Positions 9,958 to 23,522 of a stretch of DNA of 64,000 nucleotides are shown here, piece by piece. Under the pieces are notes generated by a model that saw only the letters and a list, made by a program, of their open reading frames with translations, was not told the DNA's origin and did not search any database. Location: NCBI GenBank assembly GCA_000004695.1, contig CM000150.2, forward strand, positions 3,648,001 to 3,712,000, read 5' to 3'. Position 1 is the first letter of the stretch. Each line of letters opens with the position of its first letter. The translations under genes and the position numbers were made by a program. The DNA is from Dictyostelium discoideum. Taxonomy: Eukaryota.

Positions 9958-10191
9958 ATTGCTATTATTATTATAAGTATTATTATTATAGGTATTATTA
10001 TTATAGTTATTTCTATAATTATTATTTAAATTTTCATCATAATCGTCATCTATGGAATAACTTTGATCAAAATCATCACTCTCAATTGTTTCTTCATTTT
10101 CAAATTTTCTTTTATTTTTATTATTAGGAATTTCATTACCAATTTTACTATTACTGTTATTATTACTATTATTATTGTTGTTATTATCCAT
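8011..10191 (-). CDS. Hypothetical N-rich protein, paralogous in architecture to 5375..7402 (basic stretch + SWNDKQSDELWNLFHELY motif + coiled coil)
   Basis: Long minus-strand ORF. The track start at 10326 is a poly-T read-through, and the first true ATG is at 10191 (MDNNNNNNSNNN…). The motif GKKRGASWNDKQSDELWNLFHELYASG and the coiled coil IESLEDTIKQLREKIKQQARLLE mirror the neighbouring gene. Confidence 0.55.
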
Positions 10192-16994: not shown

Positions 16995-18427
<1,433 letters not shown>

Positions 18428-19019
18428 AAAAAAAAATAAAAAAAAAAAATAAAAAAAAAAAATATACAAACAAATCAAAAGAAGATTCATTATGAAAAAA
18501 AATAAAATTAAATTAAATGTTTTATCAAATTATATTGGTAAATCAATATTTTAAAAAAATAAAAAAAAAATAAACAAACCAAAAGAAGATTCATTGTGAA
18601 AAAAAAAAAAAAAAAAAAAAAAGGTTTTAATTATTCAAATTGTATTGATAAATCAATAAAAAATATATGTAGTGGTGGTGCTAATTCCGTAAATACAAGT
18701 TTTCAATCTTTACCAACAATTTAGTACTAGTATTATTAGTAATAAATTCAAATAATTTCTTCAAAAACCGAAATTTATCTTTATATTTCGACATGAAGAA
18801 AAAAATAATTAATTTGCTGATATTGCTATCAATCTTTATAGTTTAGAAACTCAAAAGAAAAATCAATCAATCTTCAAATAAGGAGAAAAAATTAAAGTAA
18901 TAATAAAAAAAAATTATTATTTACTAAAAATTACTATTTATTTAGATTAAATTTATTTATTTATTTAATTTAATTTTTTTTTTTTTTTTTTTTAAATTGA
19001 TTTTAGTTTTGTTTTAAAT

Positions 19020-19381
19020 TTAACAACATCTACGATGACGACGACGACCAATATCAATGTCAAGGTTAATGATATTTGTGTTTGAACCTCCACTACAACC
19101 ACCATTAAAACCACCATCACCACCCCATCCACTTAAACCACCCCATCCACCTAAACCACTACCACCACAACCACCATCAAAATATGCAATTGAATTATCA
19201 TTACTAGTGAATCCATTACGATTAGAGGTACTATTTGAACTTCCCATTGCACTAGTTGAATTTGAAATTGATGAAATTGATTCTGTTATATTATAATAGT
19301 GGTAAATGATTAGTTGTTGTAAAATAAAAAAATAAAAAAATAAATAAAAAATAAGAATTAATATTTACTAAAAATTGCCAT
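19020..19381 (-). CDS. Small Gly/Cys-rich hssA/2C/7E-like protein, copy 1; exons 19381..19369 and 19282..19020
   Basis: A 13-nt first exon ATGGCAATTTTTA is followed by a GTAAAT donor, a 86-nt intron and a CAG acceptor. Exon 2 gives [91 protein letters not shown] (91 aa). The architecture (SISSIS N-terminus, Gly-rich core, C-terminal Cys pair) resembles the Dictyostelium hssA/sigN small-protein family (recalled from memory, not searched). Confidence 0.65.
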
Positions 19382-19713
19382 TGTTATTTGTTGTTTTTTA
19401 AAATGTTTTGGTTTTATTTTTTATAATTTTATAATTTTTAAAATATAAATAGTTAATTAAATTGTTTGATTAAATTATATTAAAAAAAAAAAAAAAAAAT
19501 TTAAATGATAGGAATTTCCATTATTTACAAAAACAACTTTTTTTAAAATATATAAATTTAATTTTTAAAAACAAAGATTTTGTTATTTTATTGATAAATT
19601 AATCAAACAATTTAATAAACTATTTATATTTAAAAAATAATAAAAAATAATAAAAAATAAAAAATAAAATCATTTTTTAAAAAAAAAAAGTTTTTAAAAA
19701 TCAATACAAATAA

Positions 19714-20034
19714 ATGGCAATTTTTAGTAAATATTAATTCATTCTTTTTTTTTAAATTAACATTGCTTTTACTTACATTATAGAACTAATTTCATTAATT
19801 TCAAATTCTACTGGTTCAATGGGAAGTTCAATTGGTACCTCTAATCCTGATGGATTTGCTAGTAACAATAATTCAATTGCATGTTTTGATGGTGGTTGTG
19901 GTAGTGGTTCAGGTAGATGGAGTGGTATGGGTGGTATTGGTGGTTTTAATGGTGGTTGAGGTGGTTGTGGAGGTTCAAACACAAATATCATTAATATTGA
20001 TATTGATTTATGTCGTCGTCGTAGATGCTGTTAG
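19714..20034 (+). pseudogene. hssA/2C/7E-like copy 3 with an in-frame TGA (probable pseudogene); exons 19714..19726 and 19784..20034
   Basis: Same 13-nt first exon and GTAAAT donor. Exon 2 [82 protein letters not shown] has TGA at 19957-19959 in frame, plus a 6-nt insertion relative to its paralogs. Confidence 0.55.
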
Positions 20035-20469
20035 TTTCCTCTTAAAATTTAAATTATTATAAATATACAAAAGTTTTTTATTTTTTTTAAAAAAAAAACA
20101 AAAAATAAAATATTTTTTTAATTTTTACCTACATTTTCTTGTATTTTATTCATTGAATGTCTTTATTCTCTATTTTTAAAATAAGATGATTTTTTAAAAA
20201 ATAAAAAAATAAAAAAAAAAAATAAAAATAAAAAATAAACCTAAGAGATTTCAAACATTTTTTAATATCTGAAATATTTTATTTTATTTTTAAACTTGGA
20301 ATTAAATCAATATTTTGTAATTATATTAAATAAAAAAAGAAGAAAAAGAAAAAAAAGAAAAAAAATAAGAAAAAACTTTAAAAAAAAAATAAAATTAATG
20401 TATTGATAGATCTTTAAAATGAAAATAAAAAGATAGTTAATATTATTATTTTATTGATTAGAAAAAATT

Positions 20470-20600
20470 AACAACATTATGATGACGACTACATCCAATA
20501 TCAAAGTCACATCCTCCCAAACCATCACCAGAACATGTGTTGAATTATCATTGAAAATTGATCCATTATAACTACTGGTGGGGATTGAACTTGATGTTGA
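20470..20600 (-). pseudogene. Truncated degenerate relic of an hssA/2C/7E-like gene
   Basis: The minus strand reads …GGCDFDIGCSRHHNVVN*, a decayed version of the family C-terminus …[23 protein letters not shown]. It has no 5' exon or ATG. Confidence 0.4.
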
Positions 20601-20690
20601 TCCAGATGAATTTGTAAAATTATTATTTAAAATAGTTTGTAAAATTTAAAGTTTATAATATTTACAAAAAATTGACATTTTCTTGATATT

Positions 20691-20768
20691 TATTGTTTTT
20701 TTTTGTTTTTCTTTGTTTTTCTTTGTTTTTCTTTGTTTTTCTTTGTTTTTATTTGTTTTTATTTGTTC
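20691..20768. repeat. (CTTTGTTTTT)n decamer tandem array (about 7 units)
   Basis: ttttgtttttctttgtttttctttgtttttctttgtttttctttgtttttatttgtttttatttg lies between hssA-like relics. Confidence 0.85.
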
Positions 20769-21035
20769 TAATTAATAAGTAACAAAATTATAAATTTATA
20801 GTTTTTTAATTTTGCAAAAAAAAAAAAAAATAAAATAAAATGAAATAATATAAAAAAAGTTGTTTTACAAATCTATTTATTTAATTATGGAAATTCCTAT
20901 CAATTAAAATTTTATTTTATTTTAAAATAAATTAATTAAATAATTTAATTAACTATTTAAATTGGAATAAAAAATTAAAAAAAAAAATAAAAAAAAAATC
21001 ATTTTTTAAAAAAATAAACAAGTAAAAACAAAAAA

Positions 21036-21397
21036 ATGGCAATTTTTAGTAAATATTATTTCTTTCTCACTTTTTTTTTTTTTTTTTTTTGATTATGAAT
21101 AATAACTAATGATAAAATTATAAAAAAATAATAGAATCAATTTCATCAATTTCAAATTCTACTGGTTCAATGGGAAGTTCAATTAGTGCCTCTAATCTTG
21201 ATGGAATTGATAGTAACAATAATTCAATTGCATGTTTTGATGGTGGTTGTGGTGGTAGTGGTTTAGGTGGATGGAGTGGTTTTAATGGATTGGATGGTAT
21301 TGGTGGTTTTAATGGTGGTTGTAGTGGAGGTTCAAACACAAATATCATTAACCTTGACATCGATATTGGTCGTCGTCGTCATCGTAGATGTTGTTAA
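21036..21397 (+). CDS. Small Gly/Cys-rich hssA/2C/7E-like protein, copy 2; exons 21036..21048 and 21135..21397
   Basis: Identical 13-nt first exon and GTAAAT donor, with the AG acceptor at 21133-21134. It encodes [91 protein letters not shown]. The last 24 residues are identical to copy 1. Confidence 0.65.
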
Positions 21398-21574
21398 TTT
21401 ACTCTAATTAATAATAATAATAATATTGATAATTAAAAATAATAATAAATAAAAAGTTAAACTGTTTTTTTTTATTCTTTCTTTATTTTTTATTTTTTTT
21501 TAAATTTTATTATTTTTATTATTATAAACTTTTTAATAATAATAATAATAATTAAATATTAAAAAAATATTTAA

Positions 21575-22922
21575 TTAATTTTTTAAAACTTTATTATTTT
21601 CTAAAAAATTATCAATTTCATTTAATGGTATAATTGATTGAGTTGTGTCATCCATATTTTTAATGATAACAGTATTATTAGAATATTCAGAAGGTGCTAA
21701 AATGATTACAAAAGAAGGATTATTTTTAAATTTTTTTAATTGTTTTGAAAGGTTTTCATCCTCTAAATTAAAAGTTGACAATGTTGAAGACCAACCATTT
21801 CTTCTAAGATTTGAACAAAGTTTAAAAGCATTCTCTGAAAGTGATGAATCAGTTATCGCTATACCAATTGGTCTAATTGAATTTGGAATTTTAGATTGAT
21901 CTAAAAACAATACCATTCTTTCAATACCAGATGCCCAACCAATTGATGGTAATATTTCTTTATATTTATATCCTAATTGATTTGCTAAACCATCATACCT
22001 ACCACCACCTAATATTGCTAATCCTTGTTGTTGTTGCTGTTGTTGTCTTTGTCCTTTATTATTTTGATTATTATCAATTATTTGAATTTCAAATATTGTA
22101 TGTCTATAATAATCTAAACCTCTAACTAAAGATTTATCAATTTCATATGAAATACCTAAACAATCTAAACCTTTTAAAACATTATTAAAACGATCTTTAC
22201 ATTGTATTGATAAACTATCTTGAATTGATGGTGCCAATTTATTTAATTCAATATCTTGTCTTTCTTTTGAATCTAAAATACGTAATGAATTACCTCTCTC
22301 TAATCTTTTTATAGAGATTGGTGATAGCTTATTAACATTATCATTATAGAATCGTTTTAATGTTTCATTGTAAACTTTAATTGAATCAGTATCACCTAAT
22401 GAATTGATTTTCAAGAGAGTATCAGATTTATTAATACCAAGTCTCTCTATGAAATTCATGGCCATATCAATGATTTCAACATCTGATCTTGGATGTTGAT
22501 CACCAATTAACTCTACACCCAATTGATGAAATTGTCTTTGTCTACCTCTTTGTGGTCTTTCATATCTAAACATTGGTCCTTGATAATAGTATCTTTGAGC
22601 TGGTGTTAAATGATTGGTTGATGATTGATTAATAATTGCACGTATTACTCCTGCTGTACCTTCTGGTCTTAAACATATCATTGATGGTGGCGATGATGAC
22701 TCATTTGAATAATCTTTAAATTTAAACATCTCTTTCATTACAATATCTGAACTTTCACCAACTGATCTATTAAATAATTCAAATGGTTCTATTATTGGTG
22801 TACTAATTTCTTTAAATCCATATCTTTCTGCAACACCTCTTCCAACATCAAATATAAATTTATGAATTCTTTGTTCATTTGGAAATAAATCATATGTTCC
22901 CTTTATATTTTGTAAATTGATA

Positions 22923-22983
<61 letters not shown>

Positions 22984-23080
22984 TTGTTGAATAATAAAAA
23001 ATACTTTTATTTCGTAATATTGATGTATTTTTTAAATTGTTATGTAATAATGACGAAATTAAATTTGATGTTTTTAACAT
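21575..23080 (-). CDS. Histidyl-tRNA synthetase, bacterial/organellar type with an N-terminal presequence (probably mitochondrial)
   Basis: ATG at 23080 (MLKTSNLISSLLHNNLKNTSILRNKSIFYY…). Class II aaRS motifs are present: GTYDLFPNEQRIHKFIFDVGRGVAERYGFKEISTPIIE (motif 1 region), RPEGTAGVIRAI, RYYYQGPMFRYERPQRGRQRQFHQLGVELIG (motif 2) and GGGRYDGLANQLGY…GWASGIERM (motif 3), then an anticodon-binding domain. The track start at 23164 is a poly-T read-through. Confidence 0.88.
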
Positions 23081-23522
23081 TTTTTTTTTTTTTTTTTTTC
23101 CAATTTTTTTTTTTTTTTTTTTATAAATAGTCAAAAAAAAAAGGGGTTGAAAATCCAAAATCAATCTAAAATTATAATTTTAAAATAAATTAATATATAA
23201 AATAAAAATTTTAATGTTATCTGTTTTTTATTTGTTTAGTTTTACCAAAAAAAAAAAAAAAATTAAAAAATTAATTTTTAAAAAAAAAAAAAAAAATCCC
23301 ATTTTTTTTTTTTTAAAAAAAAATAAAAAAAATAAAAAAAGAAAAAGGAAAAATATCAACACCCATCATGTAAATATTTTTTTTTTTTTCCTCTCTCTTT
23401 TTTTTCACTTTTTTTTTTTTTTTTTTTTAAAATATTATTTTATTTTATTTTATTTTAAAAATAATAATTAATAATTAATAATTAATAATTAATAAAAATA
23501 AATAAAAAAAATAAAAAAAAGA

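What the first reader, a model, noticed from the sequence alone, without database searches (positions are those of the whole stretch)
19020..21397. Inverted cluster of small Gly/Cys-rich hssA/2C/7E-like genes: two intact, one with an in-frame stop, one truncated relic
About 2.4 kb holds four copies of a 91-aa secreted-type protein family (SISSIS N-terminus, GGxGG core, invariant C-terminus …[23 protein letters not shown]). Copy 1 (minus) and copy 3 (plus) are head-to-head, with mirror-image 5' regions (gaattaatatttactaaaaattgccat at 19366-19392 versus atggcaatttttagtaaatattaattc at 19713-19740). This indicates an inverted duplication that also duplicated the promoter. Copy 3 has TGA at 19957-19959 and a 6-nt insertion. 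The 20470-20600 relic has only a decayed C-terminus. Copy 2 (21036-21397) is intact, and its last 24 residues are identical to copy 1. This points to gene conversion or a very recent origin. The ORF track only shows the 75-aa Met-internal ORFs and their Pro-rich antisense shadows, so this structure is easy to miss.
Basis: partly seen in the sequence, partly recalled or inferred. Interest (0 to 1): 0.75.

Follow-up and report, generated by a model that had tools for sequence, protein, structure and literature searches.

The report
Unannotated Dictyostelium hssA-family small-gene cluster
This 2.4-kb stretch of a social-amoeba (Dictyostelium) genome holds four members of the known hssA/2C/7E (UPF0512) family of tiny glycine-rich developmental proteins, two intact and two dead, arranged as two head-to-head pairs; this is an ordinary layout for the family, but the genome's own annotation missed all four genes.

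Summary
Window 19020-21397 carries four two-exon genes of the Dictyostelium hssA/2C/7E family, UPF0512 subgroup. Each has the family hallmark: a 13-nt first-exon ORF (ATGGCAATTTTTA|GTAAAT), one short intron, and a second exon.

- **Copies 1 and 2:** each encodes an intact 91-aa protein, 66-71% identical to D. discoideum AX4 UPF0512 L/R/M (E about 1e-32). Both pass Pfam PF05710.
- **Copy 3:** has an in-frame TGA inside a 6-nt insertion, plus changes at two near-invariant residues.
- **The relic:** a whole decayed gene (20467-20678) of a different subtype (MSIF-type), not just a C-terminal fragment.

The layout is two divergent pairs, each gene with its own promoter copy. Vicente et al. 2008 described this module for sigN genes.

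Syntenic loci (HisRS-cluster-KIN17) in sister genomes hold 0, 1 or 3 pairs. The one-pair genome carries a copy2/copy3 chimera, which indicates unequal crossing-over.

Copies 1 and 2 each have a positional orthologue there. Their identical C-termini therefore reflect family-wide constraint, not recent origin. I found no signal peptide and no SECIS. These are new members of a known kind, of modest interest.

The parts
19020..19381 (-). Copy 1: intact UPF0512/hssA-family gene. Exon 1 19369-19381 (13-nt ORF), intron 19283-19368 (86 nt, GTAAAT...CAG), exon 2 19020-19282. 91 aa, ending ...[21 protein letters not shown].
   Evidence: Model and translation; Pfam PF05710 21.6 bits against cut-off 21.4; positional orthologue L003 +10425.
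19382..19713 (.). Pair A intergenic region (332 nt, 8% GC). It is internally palindromic (arms 19412-19494 and 19578-19660, 80% complementary), so each divergent gene has its own promoter copy.
   Evidence: (I5, I6).
19511..19519 (-). GGAAATTCC motif about 130 nt upstream of the copy 1 ATG. It is one of only two occurrences in the 64 kb.
   Evidence: Part of the promoter segment shared by copies 1 and 2. Function not shown.
19714..20034 (+). Copy 3: probable pseudogene of the '...IDIDLCRR..CC / TAG-stop' subtype. Exon 1 19714-19726, intron 19727-19783 (57 nt), exon 2 19784-20034.
   Evidence: Orthologous type to L004 -10124 and -11509. Pfam score 17.6, below cut-off.
19957..19959 (+). In-frame TGA of copy 3, lying inside a 6-nt insertion (GGTTGA) relative to its orthologues and to copies 1 and 2.
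   Evidence: No SECIS in 18500-22000 at E<=10.
20467..20678 (-). Relic: complete but decayed gene of the MSIF-type subfamily. Exon 1 remnant ATGTCAATTTTTT|GTAAAT (ATG at 20678). It has lost the 3' splice site and the first ~18 nt of exon 2, and carries two 1-nt deletions and a ~60-nt internal deletion.
   Evidence: P0016 against 20636-20538, E 1e-5; alignment to L004 +10444 and +11813.
20679..21035 (.). Pair B intergenic region (357 nt). It contains the (TTGTTTTTCT)x7.5 microsatellite at 20693-20767 and the copy 2 promoter segment homologous to the copy 1 promoter.
   Evidence: (I3, I15).
20889..20897 (+). Second GGAAATTCC motif, about 140 nt upstream of the copy 2 ATG.
21036..21397 (+). Copy 2: intact UPF0512/hssA-family gene. 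Exon 1 21036-21048, intron 21049-21134 (86 nt), exon 2 21135-21397. 91 aa.
   Evidence: Pfam PF05710 23.9 bits; best hits AX4 UPF0512 L/R/M at E 3e-32 to 2e-29; positional orthologue L003 -10112.
21575..23080 (-). Flanking gene: histidyl-tRNA synthetase (501 aa), used as the synteny anchor.
17000..18427 (+). Flanking gene on the other side: KIN17-like. Coordinates are mapped from the source annotation of L001.
   Evidence: L001 14654-16081. Orthologues at the same position carry KIN17 Pfam domains.

Best explanation
The region is a small birth-and-death cluster of the Dictyostelium-specific hssA/2C/7E family, UPF0512 subgroup. It sits between the histidyl-tRNA synthetase and KIN17 genes of a genome from the D. 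discoideum species complex.

**Layout.** There are two head-to-head (divergently transcribed) gene pairs:
- Pair A: copy 1 (minus, intact) and copy 3 (plus, disabled by a TGA).
- Pair B: the relic (minus, heavily decayed) and copy 2 (plus, intact).

**Gene structure.** Each gene has its own ~180-nt promoter copy, a first exon whose ORF is 13 nt (M-A-I-F plus one base), one AT-rich intron of 57-86 nt, and a second exon.

**Products.** The intact products are 91-aa proteins rich in Gly, Ser and Asn. No confident structure is predicted for them. They have a conserved N-terminus ([14 protein letters not shown]), a length-variable Gly-rich core built on an 18-nt repeat, and a near-invariant C-terminus ([21 protein letters not shown]).

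**How the cluster evolves (shown).** The unit of change is the inverted pair, and unequal homologous recombination occurs between same-orientation copies about 1.35 kb apart. Sister genomes carry 0, 1 or 3 pairs at this locus. The one-pair genome has a gene whose promoter, exon 1 and intron match copy 3 and whose 3' half and 3' flank match copy 2.

**What the proteins do (inferred from the family, not shown here).** Transcription is probably switched on during multicellular development, in prestalk or cup cells. I think the protein most likely acts through its C-terminal module. That module is an alternating hydrophobic/acidic strand-like segment (I-N-L-D-I-D-I), followed by a polybasic patch and a terminal Cys-Cys that could self-associate or attach to membranes. 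The mechanism is unproven for every member of the subgroup.
For: - **Gene models:** canonical GT...AG introns give 91-aa ORFs. Exon 1 plus the donor site is conserved in all four copies and in nine orthologues or paralogues in L003 and L004. Intron length varies from 57 to 106 nt, and the reading frame is restored only by splicing.
- **Family membership:** Pfam PF05710 is above the gathering score for copies 1 and 2. The 28 hits are all from Dictyostelium, and the best are named hssA/2C/7E family or UPF0512, with E 3e-32 and 71% identity. The C-terminal motif is shared family-wide.
- **Published family features:** the 13-nt exon-1 ORF (89 of 96 genes) and the 'tandem of two inverted genes' with a palindromic intergenic region are described in PMC2257962.
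- **Promoter duplication:** copy 1 and copy 2 upstream regions are 71% identical against a shuffle baseline of 59+-2. Introns are 72% against 58+-3. Downstream regions are at background. The pair A intergenic region is palindromic.
- **Synteny and copy number:**
- **Chimeric L003 gene:** 79-95% identity to copy 3 upstream, 91-98% to copy 2 in the 3' half of exon 2 and 79% in the first ~50 nt of its 3' flank.
- **Selection between orthologues:** dN/dS is 0.4-0.76 between orthologues and about 1 between paralogues.
- **Pseudogene lesions:**
- **Protein properties:** no hydrophobic segment, AlphaFold pLDDT 41, no relative in the PDB.
- **Family expression literature:** PMC2257962, PMC6198379.
Against: - No transcript data exist for this genome. 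Splicing, expression and the status of copy 3 are inferred.
- Pfam support is marginal for copy 1 (21.6 against 21.4 bits) and sub-threshold for copy 3.
- The counts behind the dN/dS values and the quartet test are small (4 informative sites).
- Protein function is unknown for the subgroup. Six knock-outs of related small-protein genes gave no phenotype (PMC8554618).
- For hssA itself the transcript, not the protein, was reported to be the active agent (as summarised in PMC6198379). The protein-level mechanism I give is therefore speculative.
Confidence: 0.9

Rival explanations
1. One reading: copies 1 and 2 (and the copy 1/copy 3 pair) come from a very recent inverted duplication in this genome, or are kept identical at the 3' end by ongoing gene conversion.
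For: - Exon 2 of copies 1 and 2 is 92% identical, and the last 93 nt differ at one base.
- Synonymous divergence between the two paralogues (0.068) is no larger than between orthologues (0.084-0.086).
- The introns and promoters are much more diverged than the exons.
- A max-chi-square mosaic test of copy 2 against copies 1 and 3 gives P about 0.01.
Against: - The C-terminal motif is near-invariant across the whole family, on other chromosomes and in other species. Amino-acid identity there needs no conversion.
- dS in the last 24 codons (0.064) equals the gene-wide value.
- Both copies have positional orthologues with collinear flanks in L003.
- All 4 quartet-informative sites group orthologues, and 0 group the two window copies.
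- The 'copy 3-like' sites in the 5' half of copy 2 are mostly changes unique to copy 1, because L003p agrees with copies 2 and 3 there.
- The pair module is ancestral.
Confidence: 0.12
2. Copy 3 is not dead. The TGA could be a sequencing or assembly error, could be read as selenocysteine or read through, or the locus could act as an RNA, as reported for hssA, whose frame-shifted transcript still suppressed a mutant phenotype.
For: - Exon 1, both splice sites, the promoter copy and the rest of the reading frame are intact.
- dN/dS against L004 orthologues is 0.46-0.53, no higher than for the intact genes.
- The TGA is one base away from TGT (Cys) or GGA (Gly), which occupy this position in relatives.
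- The RNA-level action of hssA is summarised in PMC6198379.
Against: - No SECIS or any other Rfam family lies near copy 3 at E<=10.
- Copy 3 also carries Leu at two otherwise near-invariant Ser positions, S6 and S9.
- Its Pfam score falls below the cut-off.
- The one-pair sister genome has dispensed with the 3' half of this gene altogether.
Confidence: 0.15
3. The real genes are the 72-80-aa proline-rich ORFs on the opposite strands (19057-19296 plus, 19773-19991 minus, 21118-21360 minus).
For: They are the longest mechanical ORFs at these places.
Against: - They are the expected antisense shadow of GGT-rich Gly codons (ACC/CCA).
- The sense frames match 28 curated or predicted Dictyostelium family proteins at up to E 3e-32 and a Pfam family.
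- The conserved ATG, 13-nt exon, GTAAAT donor and AG acceptor exist only on the sense strand.
Confidence: 0.01

Closest known systems
UPF0512 proteins of D. discoideum AX4 (L, R, M, B, J, A, U, D...; NCBI name 'hssA/2C/7E family protein')
   Same: - Size is 75-91 aa.
- The N-terminus is [14 protein letters not shown].
- There is a Gly/Trp-rich core.
- The C-terminus is SN(T/V)N(I/V)[14 protein letters not shown].
- Identity to copies 1 and 2 is 60-73%.
- Copy 3 shares the ...IDIDLCRR..CC variant with UPF0512 U.
   Different: - No copy is identical to any protein in the 15-billion-sequence collection.
- The genes come from a different genome of the D. discoideum complex (HisRS 95% identical to a 'D. 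discoideum' isolate).
- They are unannotated in that genome.
- Synteny with AX4 could not be tested, because the AX4 look-ups failed.
sigN Group 2 gene cluster, D. discoideum chromosome 2 (Vicente et al. 2008, PMC2257962)
   Same: - The gene structure is the same: a 13-nt exon-1 ORF, one intron and exon 2.
- Genes lie in inverted pairs with palindromic intergenic promoter regions.
- The authors inferred growth of the cluster 'by successive duplication of a tandem of two inverted genes'.
   Different: - It is a different subgroup of the family, with 87-89-aa proteins that have another C-terminal region.
- sigN promoters carry GBF-like G-rich boxes. Neither intergenic region here has any.
- Here two of the four members are pseudogenes.
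Cup-cell-specific hssA/7E/2C clade and hssA itself (Kin et al. 2018, PMC6198379)
   Same: It belongs to the same large family of about 100 genes, each with a 13-bp first exon and a ~200-bp second exon.
   Different: Expression pattern and function were not tested here. Nothing ties these copies to that particular clade.
SRCP1 (serine-rich chaperone protein 1) of D. discoideum
   Same: - It is a ~9-kDa protein specific to Dictyostelium.
- Its discoverers place it in the same large class of small developmentally regulated proteins.
[quoted passage not shown]
- The window proteins also end in a strand-like alternating hydrophobic/polar segment.
   Different: - I could not obtain the SRCP1 sequence, so relatedness is untested.
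- The resemblance is a lead for how the protein might work, not evidence of membership.

Membership tests
hssA/2C/7E (sigN-related) small-protein gene family of Dictyostelium | [quoted passage not shown] | tested here: met
   All four copies start with ATG(G/T)CAATTTTT(A/T) followed by GTAAAT. Copies 1-3 splice to an open frame through an AG acceptor. The relic has lost its acceptor.
hssA/2C/7E (sigN-related) small-protein gene family of Dictyostelium | Product shorter than 120 aa and rich in Ser, Gly and Cys. | tested here: met
   91 aa with 20-21 Gly, 16 Ser, 10 Asn and 4-5 Cys.
hssA/2C/7E (sigN-related) small-protein gene family of Dictyostelium | Match to Pfam PF05710 (HssA/B-related, 'Coiled') at or above the gathering score. 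| tested here: met
   Copy 2 scores 23.9 bits and copy 1 scores 21.6 bits against a cut-off of 21.4. Copy 3, with the stop replaced by Cys, scores 17.6 and does not pass.
UPF0512 subgroup | Significant full-length similarity to named UPF0512 proteins. | tested here: met
   E 3e-32 to 1e-17, 60-73% identity and 90-100% coverage to AX4 UPF0512 L, R, M, B, J, A, U and D.
UPF0512 subgroup | Conserved C-terminal motif SNxN(I/V)INxDIDIGRR..RRCC and N-terminal M(A/T)IF.SISSISN. | tested here: met
   Invariant or near-invariant columns in the 25-sequence alignment are all present in copies 1 and 2. Copy 3 deviates at S6, S9 and the IG to LC position.
hssA/2C/7E family | Developmentally regulated expression (prestalk or cup cells; SrfA or cAMP dependence). 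| not testable with these tools
   No transcript data are available for this genome. The feature is known only for AX4 relatives.
sigN Group 1/2 specifically | Group-specific C-terminal region and GBF-type G-rich promoter boxes. | tested here: not met
   No (T/G)G(T/G)G(T/G)G(T/G) box occurs in either intergenic region. The best protein hits are UPF0512 proteins, not sigN. sigN sequences themselves were not compared.
Selenoprotein gene (for the copy 3 TGA) | SECIS element in the 3' UTR. | tested here: not met
   No SECIS or any other family was found near copy 3 at E<=10 in 18500-22000. Nothing reached gathering score in the whole window.
Classically secreted protein ('secreted-type') | N-terminal hydrophobic signal sequence or a transmembrane segment. 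| tested here: not met
   The maximum Kyte-Doolittle mean is 1.3 over 9 residues and 0.5-0.6 over 19 residues. No dedicated signal-peptide predictor was available.

The most novel reading that the evidence does not exclude
The HisRS-KIN17 interval may be a fast-turnover hotspot. Closely related (cryptic) lineages of the D. discoideum complex differ in the number (0-3 pairs) and type of these small developmental genes. The differences arise through unequal crossing-over, and the central part of the protein evolves at dN/dS about 1 or higher. If the products act on the cell surface or between cells in the prestalk or cup region, this presence/absence and sequence variation could contribute to lineage-specific developmental or social compatibility. 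A further possibility is that the TGA-bearing copy 3 still acts at the RNA level, as reported for hssA.
Probability: 0.08. Interest if true: 0.55.

Novelty: new member of a known kind. Interest (0 to 1): 0.22.

Why it matters
- **Annotation.** Three new Dictyostelium assemblies call no gene between HisRS and KIN17, yet 2 to 6 family members lie there. Two-exon genes with a 13-nt first exon are missed systematically. Family counts and copy-number comparisons between species that rely on those annotations will therefore be too low.
- **Evolution of the family.** The locus gives a clean, small example of how this ~100-gene family grows and shrinks. The unit is the inverted pair, and unequal crossing-over between same-orientation copies is documented by a chimeric gene in a sister genome. 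Pseudogenes are caught at two stages of decay.
- **What it does not do.** It does not change what is known about the function of these proteins, which remains open.

Tried and rejected
- **Selenocysteine reading of the TGA:** rejected. No SECIS was found.
- **GGAAATTCC as a conserved regulatory element:** it occurs only twice in the window, once in each of the copy 1 and copy 2 promoters, and once in L003. It is absent from L004, L005 and the D. firmibasis cluster. I treat it as part of the duplicated sequence, with no evidence of function.
- **GBF G-boxes, as in sigN promoters:** none found.
- **Gene conversion between copy 2 and copies 1 or 3:** the first mosaic test was inflated by misalignment around the copy 3 indels. 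The codon-guided test still gives P about 0.01, but the outgroup shows that most '3-like' sites are changes unique to copy 1. I do not claim conversion.
- **Structure:** the AlphaFold model on a 28-sequence alignment was uninformative (pLDDT 41), so I ran no fold search. The PDB profile search returned only chance hits.
- **AX4 synteny:** look-ups of P0001 and P0008 found no record, so I could not identify the AX4 counterpart of this locus. Exact-sequence look-ups of the window proteins and of HisRS also found nothing.
- included an 'hssA-like' sequence that I recalled rather than retrieved. Its hits are not used as evidence.
- **SRCP1:** the primary paper (PMC6091221) is not held in the library.
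- **Literature term 'UPF0512':** no paper holds it.
Full report
**What is in the sequence**

The window is 21% GC. Its HisRS gene (21575-23080, minus strand) is found exactly in NCBI assembly GCA_054883475.1, contig JBTAPE010000039.1. The closest HisRS proteins come from 'Dictyostelium discoideum' ACTFIW (95% identity), 'D. cf. discoideum' ACTFIZ (91%) and D. citrinum (87%). The source is therefore a member of the D. discoideum species complex, but not AX4.

The mechanical ORF list for 18800-21700 shows only 75-aa ORFs that start at an internal Met, plus 72-80-aa Pro-rich ORFs on the opposite strands.

Adding the 13-nt first exon gives three gene models:
- Exon 1 is ATGGCAATTTTTA, followed by the donor GTAAAT.
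- The introns are 86, 57 and 86 nt and end in AG.
- Copy 1 (19381 to 19020, minus strand) and copy 2 (21036-21397, plus strand) each encode 91 aa.
- Copy 3 (19714-20034, plus strand) has 87 codons with TGA at 19957-19959.

The 27-nt segment ATGGCAATTTTTAGTAAATATTAATTC occurs perfectly at 19355-19381 (minus) and 19714-19740 (plus), and with one mismatch at 21036-21062 (plus). None is expected by chance.

A tblastn search and an exon-1 motif scan of the whole 64 kb find exactly four copies and no others.

**The relic is a whole gene of another subtype**

On the minus strand, 20678-20467 begins with its own exon 1 and donor site (ATGTCAATTTTTT|GTAAAT). It aligns along exon 1, the intron and the first half of exon 2 with two intact genes of the sister genome L004 (+10444 and +11813). 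Those genes are of the MSIFNSISSISN...[23 protein letters not shown] type.

Relative to them the relic has these lesions:
- It has lost the 3' splice site and the first ~18 nt of exon 2.
- It has a 1-nt deletion in ...ACAGCATG....
- It lacks about 60 nt of the Gly-rich core.
- It has a 1-nt deletion just before the terminal Cys-Cys-stop.

The cluster is therefore two head-to-head pairs:
- Copy 1 (minus) with copy 3 (plus), separated by 332 nt.
- The relic (minus) with copy 2 (plus), separated by 357 nt.

**Family assignment**

- **Pfam:** copies 1 and 2 match PF05710 (HssA/B-related) above the gathering score (21.6 and 23.9 bits against 21.4). Copy 3 does not (17.6).
- **Database search:** a search of 5.8 billion proteins returned 28 hits, all from Dictyostelium. 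The best are AX4 'hssA/2C/7E family protein / UPF0512 protein' L, R and M, at E 3e-32 to 2e-29 and 66-71% identity.
- **Conserved motifs:** in a 25-sequence alignment the N-terminus (M.IF.SISSISN) and the C-terminus (SN.N.IN.D.DIGRR..RRCC) are invariant or nearly so.
[quoted passage not shown] 2008, PMC2257962).
- **Novelty of the sequences:** none of the window proteins is present as an exact sequence in the 15-billion-protein collection.
- **Annotation gap:** the source annotation calls no gene between HisRS and the next gene. The same is true of the syntenic intervals in L003 and L004.

**Promoters and the inverted-pair module**

Between copies 1 and 2, identity by region is as follows:

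| Region | Identity | Shuffle baseline |
|---|---|---|
| Exon 2 | 92% | not computed |
| Intron | 72% | 58 +- 3 |
| ~180 nt upstream | 71% | 59 +- 2 |
| Downstream | 57% | 58 +- 2.5 (no similarity) |

The duplicated unit therefore runs from about -180 to the stop codon.

The pair A intergenic region is itself a palindrome (arms 19412-19494 and 19578-19660, 80% complementary). Each gene of the pair thus carries its own promoter copy.

This is the organisation Vicente et al. described for sigN Group 2: inverted gene pairs with palindromic intergenic regions, which they inferred to have multiplied 'by successive duplication of a tandem of two inverted genes'. A D. firmibasis locus fetched through hit P0009 likewise shows three minus/plus pairs among eight family copies in 12 kb. 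The head-to-head layout is therefore the ancestral module of the family, not an event peculiar to this locus.

**Comparative history of the locus**

HisRS orthologues led to three syntenic loci, each with the order HisRS, cluster, KIN17 (minus strand), MIF4G gene. The HisRS-KIN17 interval holds the following:

| Genome | Pairs in the interval |
|---|---|
| L005 (D. citrinum) | 0 |
| L003 (ACTFIW) | 1 |
| Window | 2 |
| L004 (ACTFIZ) | 3 (five intact genes and one partial copy) |

- **Copy 3:** it groups with the L004 minus-strand genes that share ...NIINIDIDLCRR..CC and a TAG stop.
- **The relic:** it groups with the L004 MSIF-type plus-strand genes.
- **Copy 2:** it groups with the HisRS-proximal gene of L003.
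- **Copy 1:** it lies next to the KIN17-proximal genes of L003 and L004.

The L003 minus-strand gene is a chimera relative to the window:
- Its promoter, exon 1 and the 5' part of its intron match copy 3 (79-95%) far better than copy 2 (47-80%).
- The 3' half of its exon 2 matches copy 2 (91-98%) better than copy 3 (75%). Just past the stop codon the match is 79% to copy 2 against 63% to copy 3.
- The switch lies in the 5' half of exon 2, where copies 2 and 3 are 92% identical (D7).

A single unequal crossover between copies 2 and 3 produces exactly the L003 arrangement. The two copies have the same orientation and lie about 1.35 kb apart. The crossover would delete the relic and the 3' part of copy 3. 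The inner genes are of distinct subtypes that are shared with L004. The two-pair state is therefore the older one, and L003 is the deletion product (inference).

**The 'gene conversion or very recent origin' claim**

- **Divergence:** copies 1 and 2 differ at 22 of 276 coding positions (4 synonymous, 18 non-synonymous; dS 0.068, dN 0.090). In the last 24 codons there is one synonymous difference and no non-synonymous one.
- **Interpretation:** dS in that segment (0.064) is the same as for the whole gene, and the C-terminal motif is conserved family-wide. Purifying selection is enough to explain the identical residues.
- **Orthology:** both copies have positional orthologues with collinear flanks in L003. 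Of the quartet-informative exon-2 sites, 4 support (copy 1, L003p)(copy 2, L003m) and 0 support (copy 1, copy 2). The copy 1/copy 2 split therefore predates the separation of these two genomes.
- **Caveats:** the counts are small. Paralogue dS is no larger than orthologue dS (0.084-0.086), so older homogenisation cannot be excluded.
- **Mosaic test:** a test of copy 2 against copies 1 and 3 gives P about 0.01 after a codon-guided alignment. A first version was inflated by misalignment. The outgroup shows that most of the 'copy 3-like' sites are changes unique to copy 1. I do not claim conversion.

**Status of copy 3**

The TGA lies inside a 6-nt insertion (GGTTGA) relative to copies 1 and 2 and to both L004 orthologues. 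Relatives with an insertion at this point have Gly or Cys there (AX4 UPF0512 U and M), so a single base change created the stop.

Copy 3 also has Leu at two otherwise near-invariant Ser positions, S6 and S9. No SECIS element or any other Rfam family lies near it.

Its dN/dS against orthologues (0.46-0.53) is no higher than for the intact genes, so the disablement is probably recent. A sequencing error cannot be excluded with these tools.

**The proteins**

- **Composition:** 20-21 Gly, 16 Ser, 10 Asn and 4-5 Cys in 91 residues.
- **No hydrophobic segment:** nothing could serve as a signal peptide or transmembrane helix (maximum Kyte-Doolittle 19-residue mean 0.6). 'Secreted-type' is not supported by the sequence.
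- **No structural information:** AlphaFold on a 28-sequence alignment gives pLDDT 41 and no secondary structure. A PDB profile search gives only chance hits.
- **Length variation:** the Gly core of copy 1 contains an 18-nt (six-codon) tandem repeat at 19111-19168. The orthologue L003p lacks exactly 18 nt there. Replication slippage therefore explains the length variation of 75-91 aa in the family.
- **Selection:** between orthologues dN/dS is 0.4-0.76. Between paralogues it is about 1.0-1.3, with the changes concentrated in the middle of the protein.

**How it most likely works**

Shown here:
- Gene structure.
- Family membership.
- Duplicated promoters.
- Turnover of pairs by unequal crossing-over.

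Inferred from published work on AX4 relatives: these genes are switched on during multicellular development. sigN genes are expressed in prestalk cells from about 10 h. One hssA clade is expressed very strongly and exclusively in cup cells (PMC2257962, PMC6198379).

My own inference concerns the C-terminal module, which is the constrained, functional part:
- It consists of an alternating hydrophobic/acidic, strand-like I-N-L-D-I-D-I segment, followed by RRRHRR and a terminal Cys-Cys.
- It could mediate self-association or membrane attachment.
- The variable middle is free to drift.
[quoted passage not shown] This is a functional analogy only, because I could not compare the sequences.

Points against a strong protein-level claim:
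- Six knock-outs of related genes had no phenotype (PMC8554618).
- For hssA itself, a frame-shifted transcript was as active as the in-frame one (as summarised in PMC6198379).

**Verdict**

The family assignment and the counts (two intact, one with a stop, one relic) are right. The evolutionary gloss (recent origin or conversion), the 'secreted-type' label and the description of the relic are not.

The feature is a set of new, unannotated members of a known family in its known inverted-pair organisation. What is new is modest:
- The annotation gap.
- The variation in pair number (0-3) among close relatives.
- The chimeric recombinant that documents unequal crossing-over.

Noticed in passing
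L001 11506-14654 (= window 18427-21575); L003 9485-11126; L004 9473-13657: The deposited annotations of three new Dictyostelium assemblies call no gene in the HisRS-KIN17 interval, yet 2, 4 and 6 hssA/UPF0512-type copies lie there. Genes with a 13-nt first exon seem to be missed systematically.
   Followed up: partly
L003 9650-10424 (minus-strand gene, ATG at 10112): This gene is a chimera of the window's copy 3 (promoter, exon 1, intron) and copy 2 (3' half of exon 2 and the 3' flank). This indicates an unequal crossover that removed one pair-length unit in that lineage.
   Followed up: yes
L004 12593-12736 (minus strand): A further partial family copy that matches only residues 3-50 and has no recognisable exon-1 motif. 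It is probably another pseudogene, in the third pair of that genome.
   Followed up: no
window 20693-20767: A 10-nt microsatellite, (TTGTTTTTCT) x 7.5 with 96% matches, lies directly upstream of the relic's start codon, in the pair B intergenic region.
   Followed up: no
window 19111-19168: An 18-nt (six-codon) tandem repeat lies inside the Gly/Trp core of copy 1. The orthologue in L003 lacks exactly 18 nt there, which suggests that slippage drives length variation in the family.
   Followed up: partly
window 19511-19519 (minus) and 20889-20897 (plus): The palindrome-like motif GGAAATTCC occurs only twice in the 64 kb, each time ~130-140 nt upstream of an intact copy (1 and 2). It occurs once in the L003 intergenic region and is absent from L004, L005 and the D. 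firmibasis cluster.
   Followed up: partly
L002 7800-19640 (D. firmibasis CM069770.1): Eight family copies lie in 12 kb, including three minus/plus head-to-head pairs. They are interspersed with unrelated genes (a TIG-domain protein and a nucleoside hydrolase).
   Followed up: partly
L005 10133-10969: D. citrinum has no family copy between HisRS and KIN17. Its annotation instead calls a 146-aa product of unknown nature there.
   Followed up: no
window 21835-21920 (plus strand): A weak snR41-like C/D-box snoRNA match (25.5 bits against gathering score 50, E 0.31) lies antisense within the HisRS coding region. I took it as chance.
   Followed up: no
window 21575-23164 (minus strand): The HisRS ORF carries an 18-residue Asn run near its N-terminus and a Gln run in the catalytic region.
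   Followed up: no
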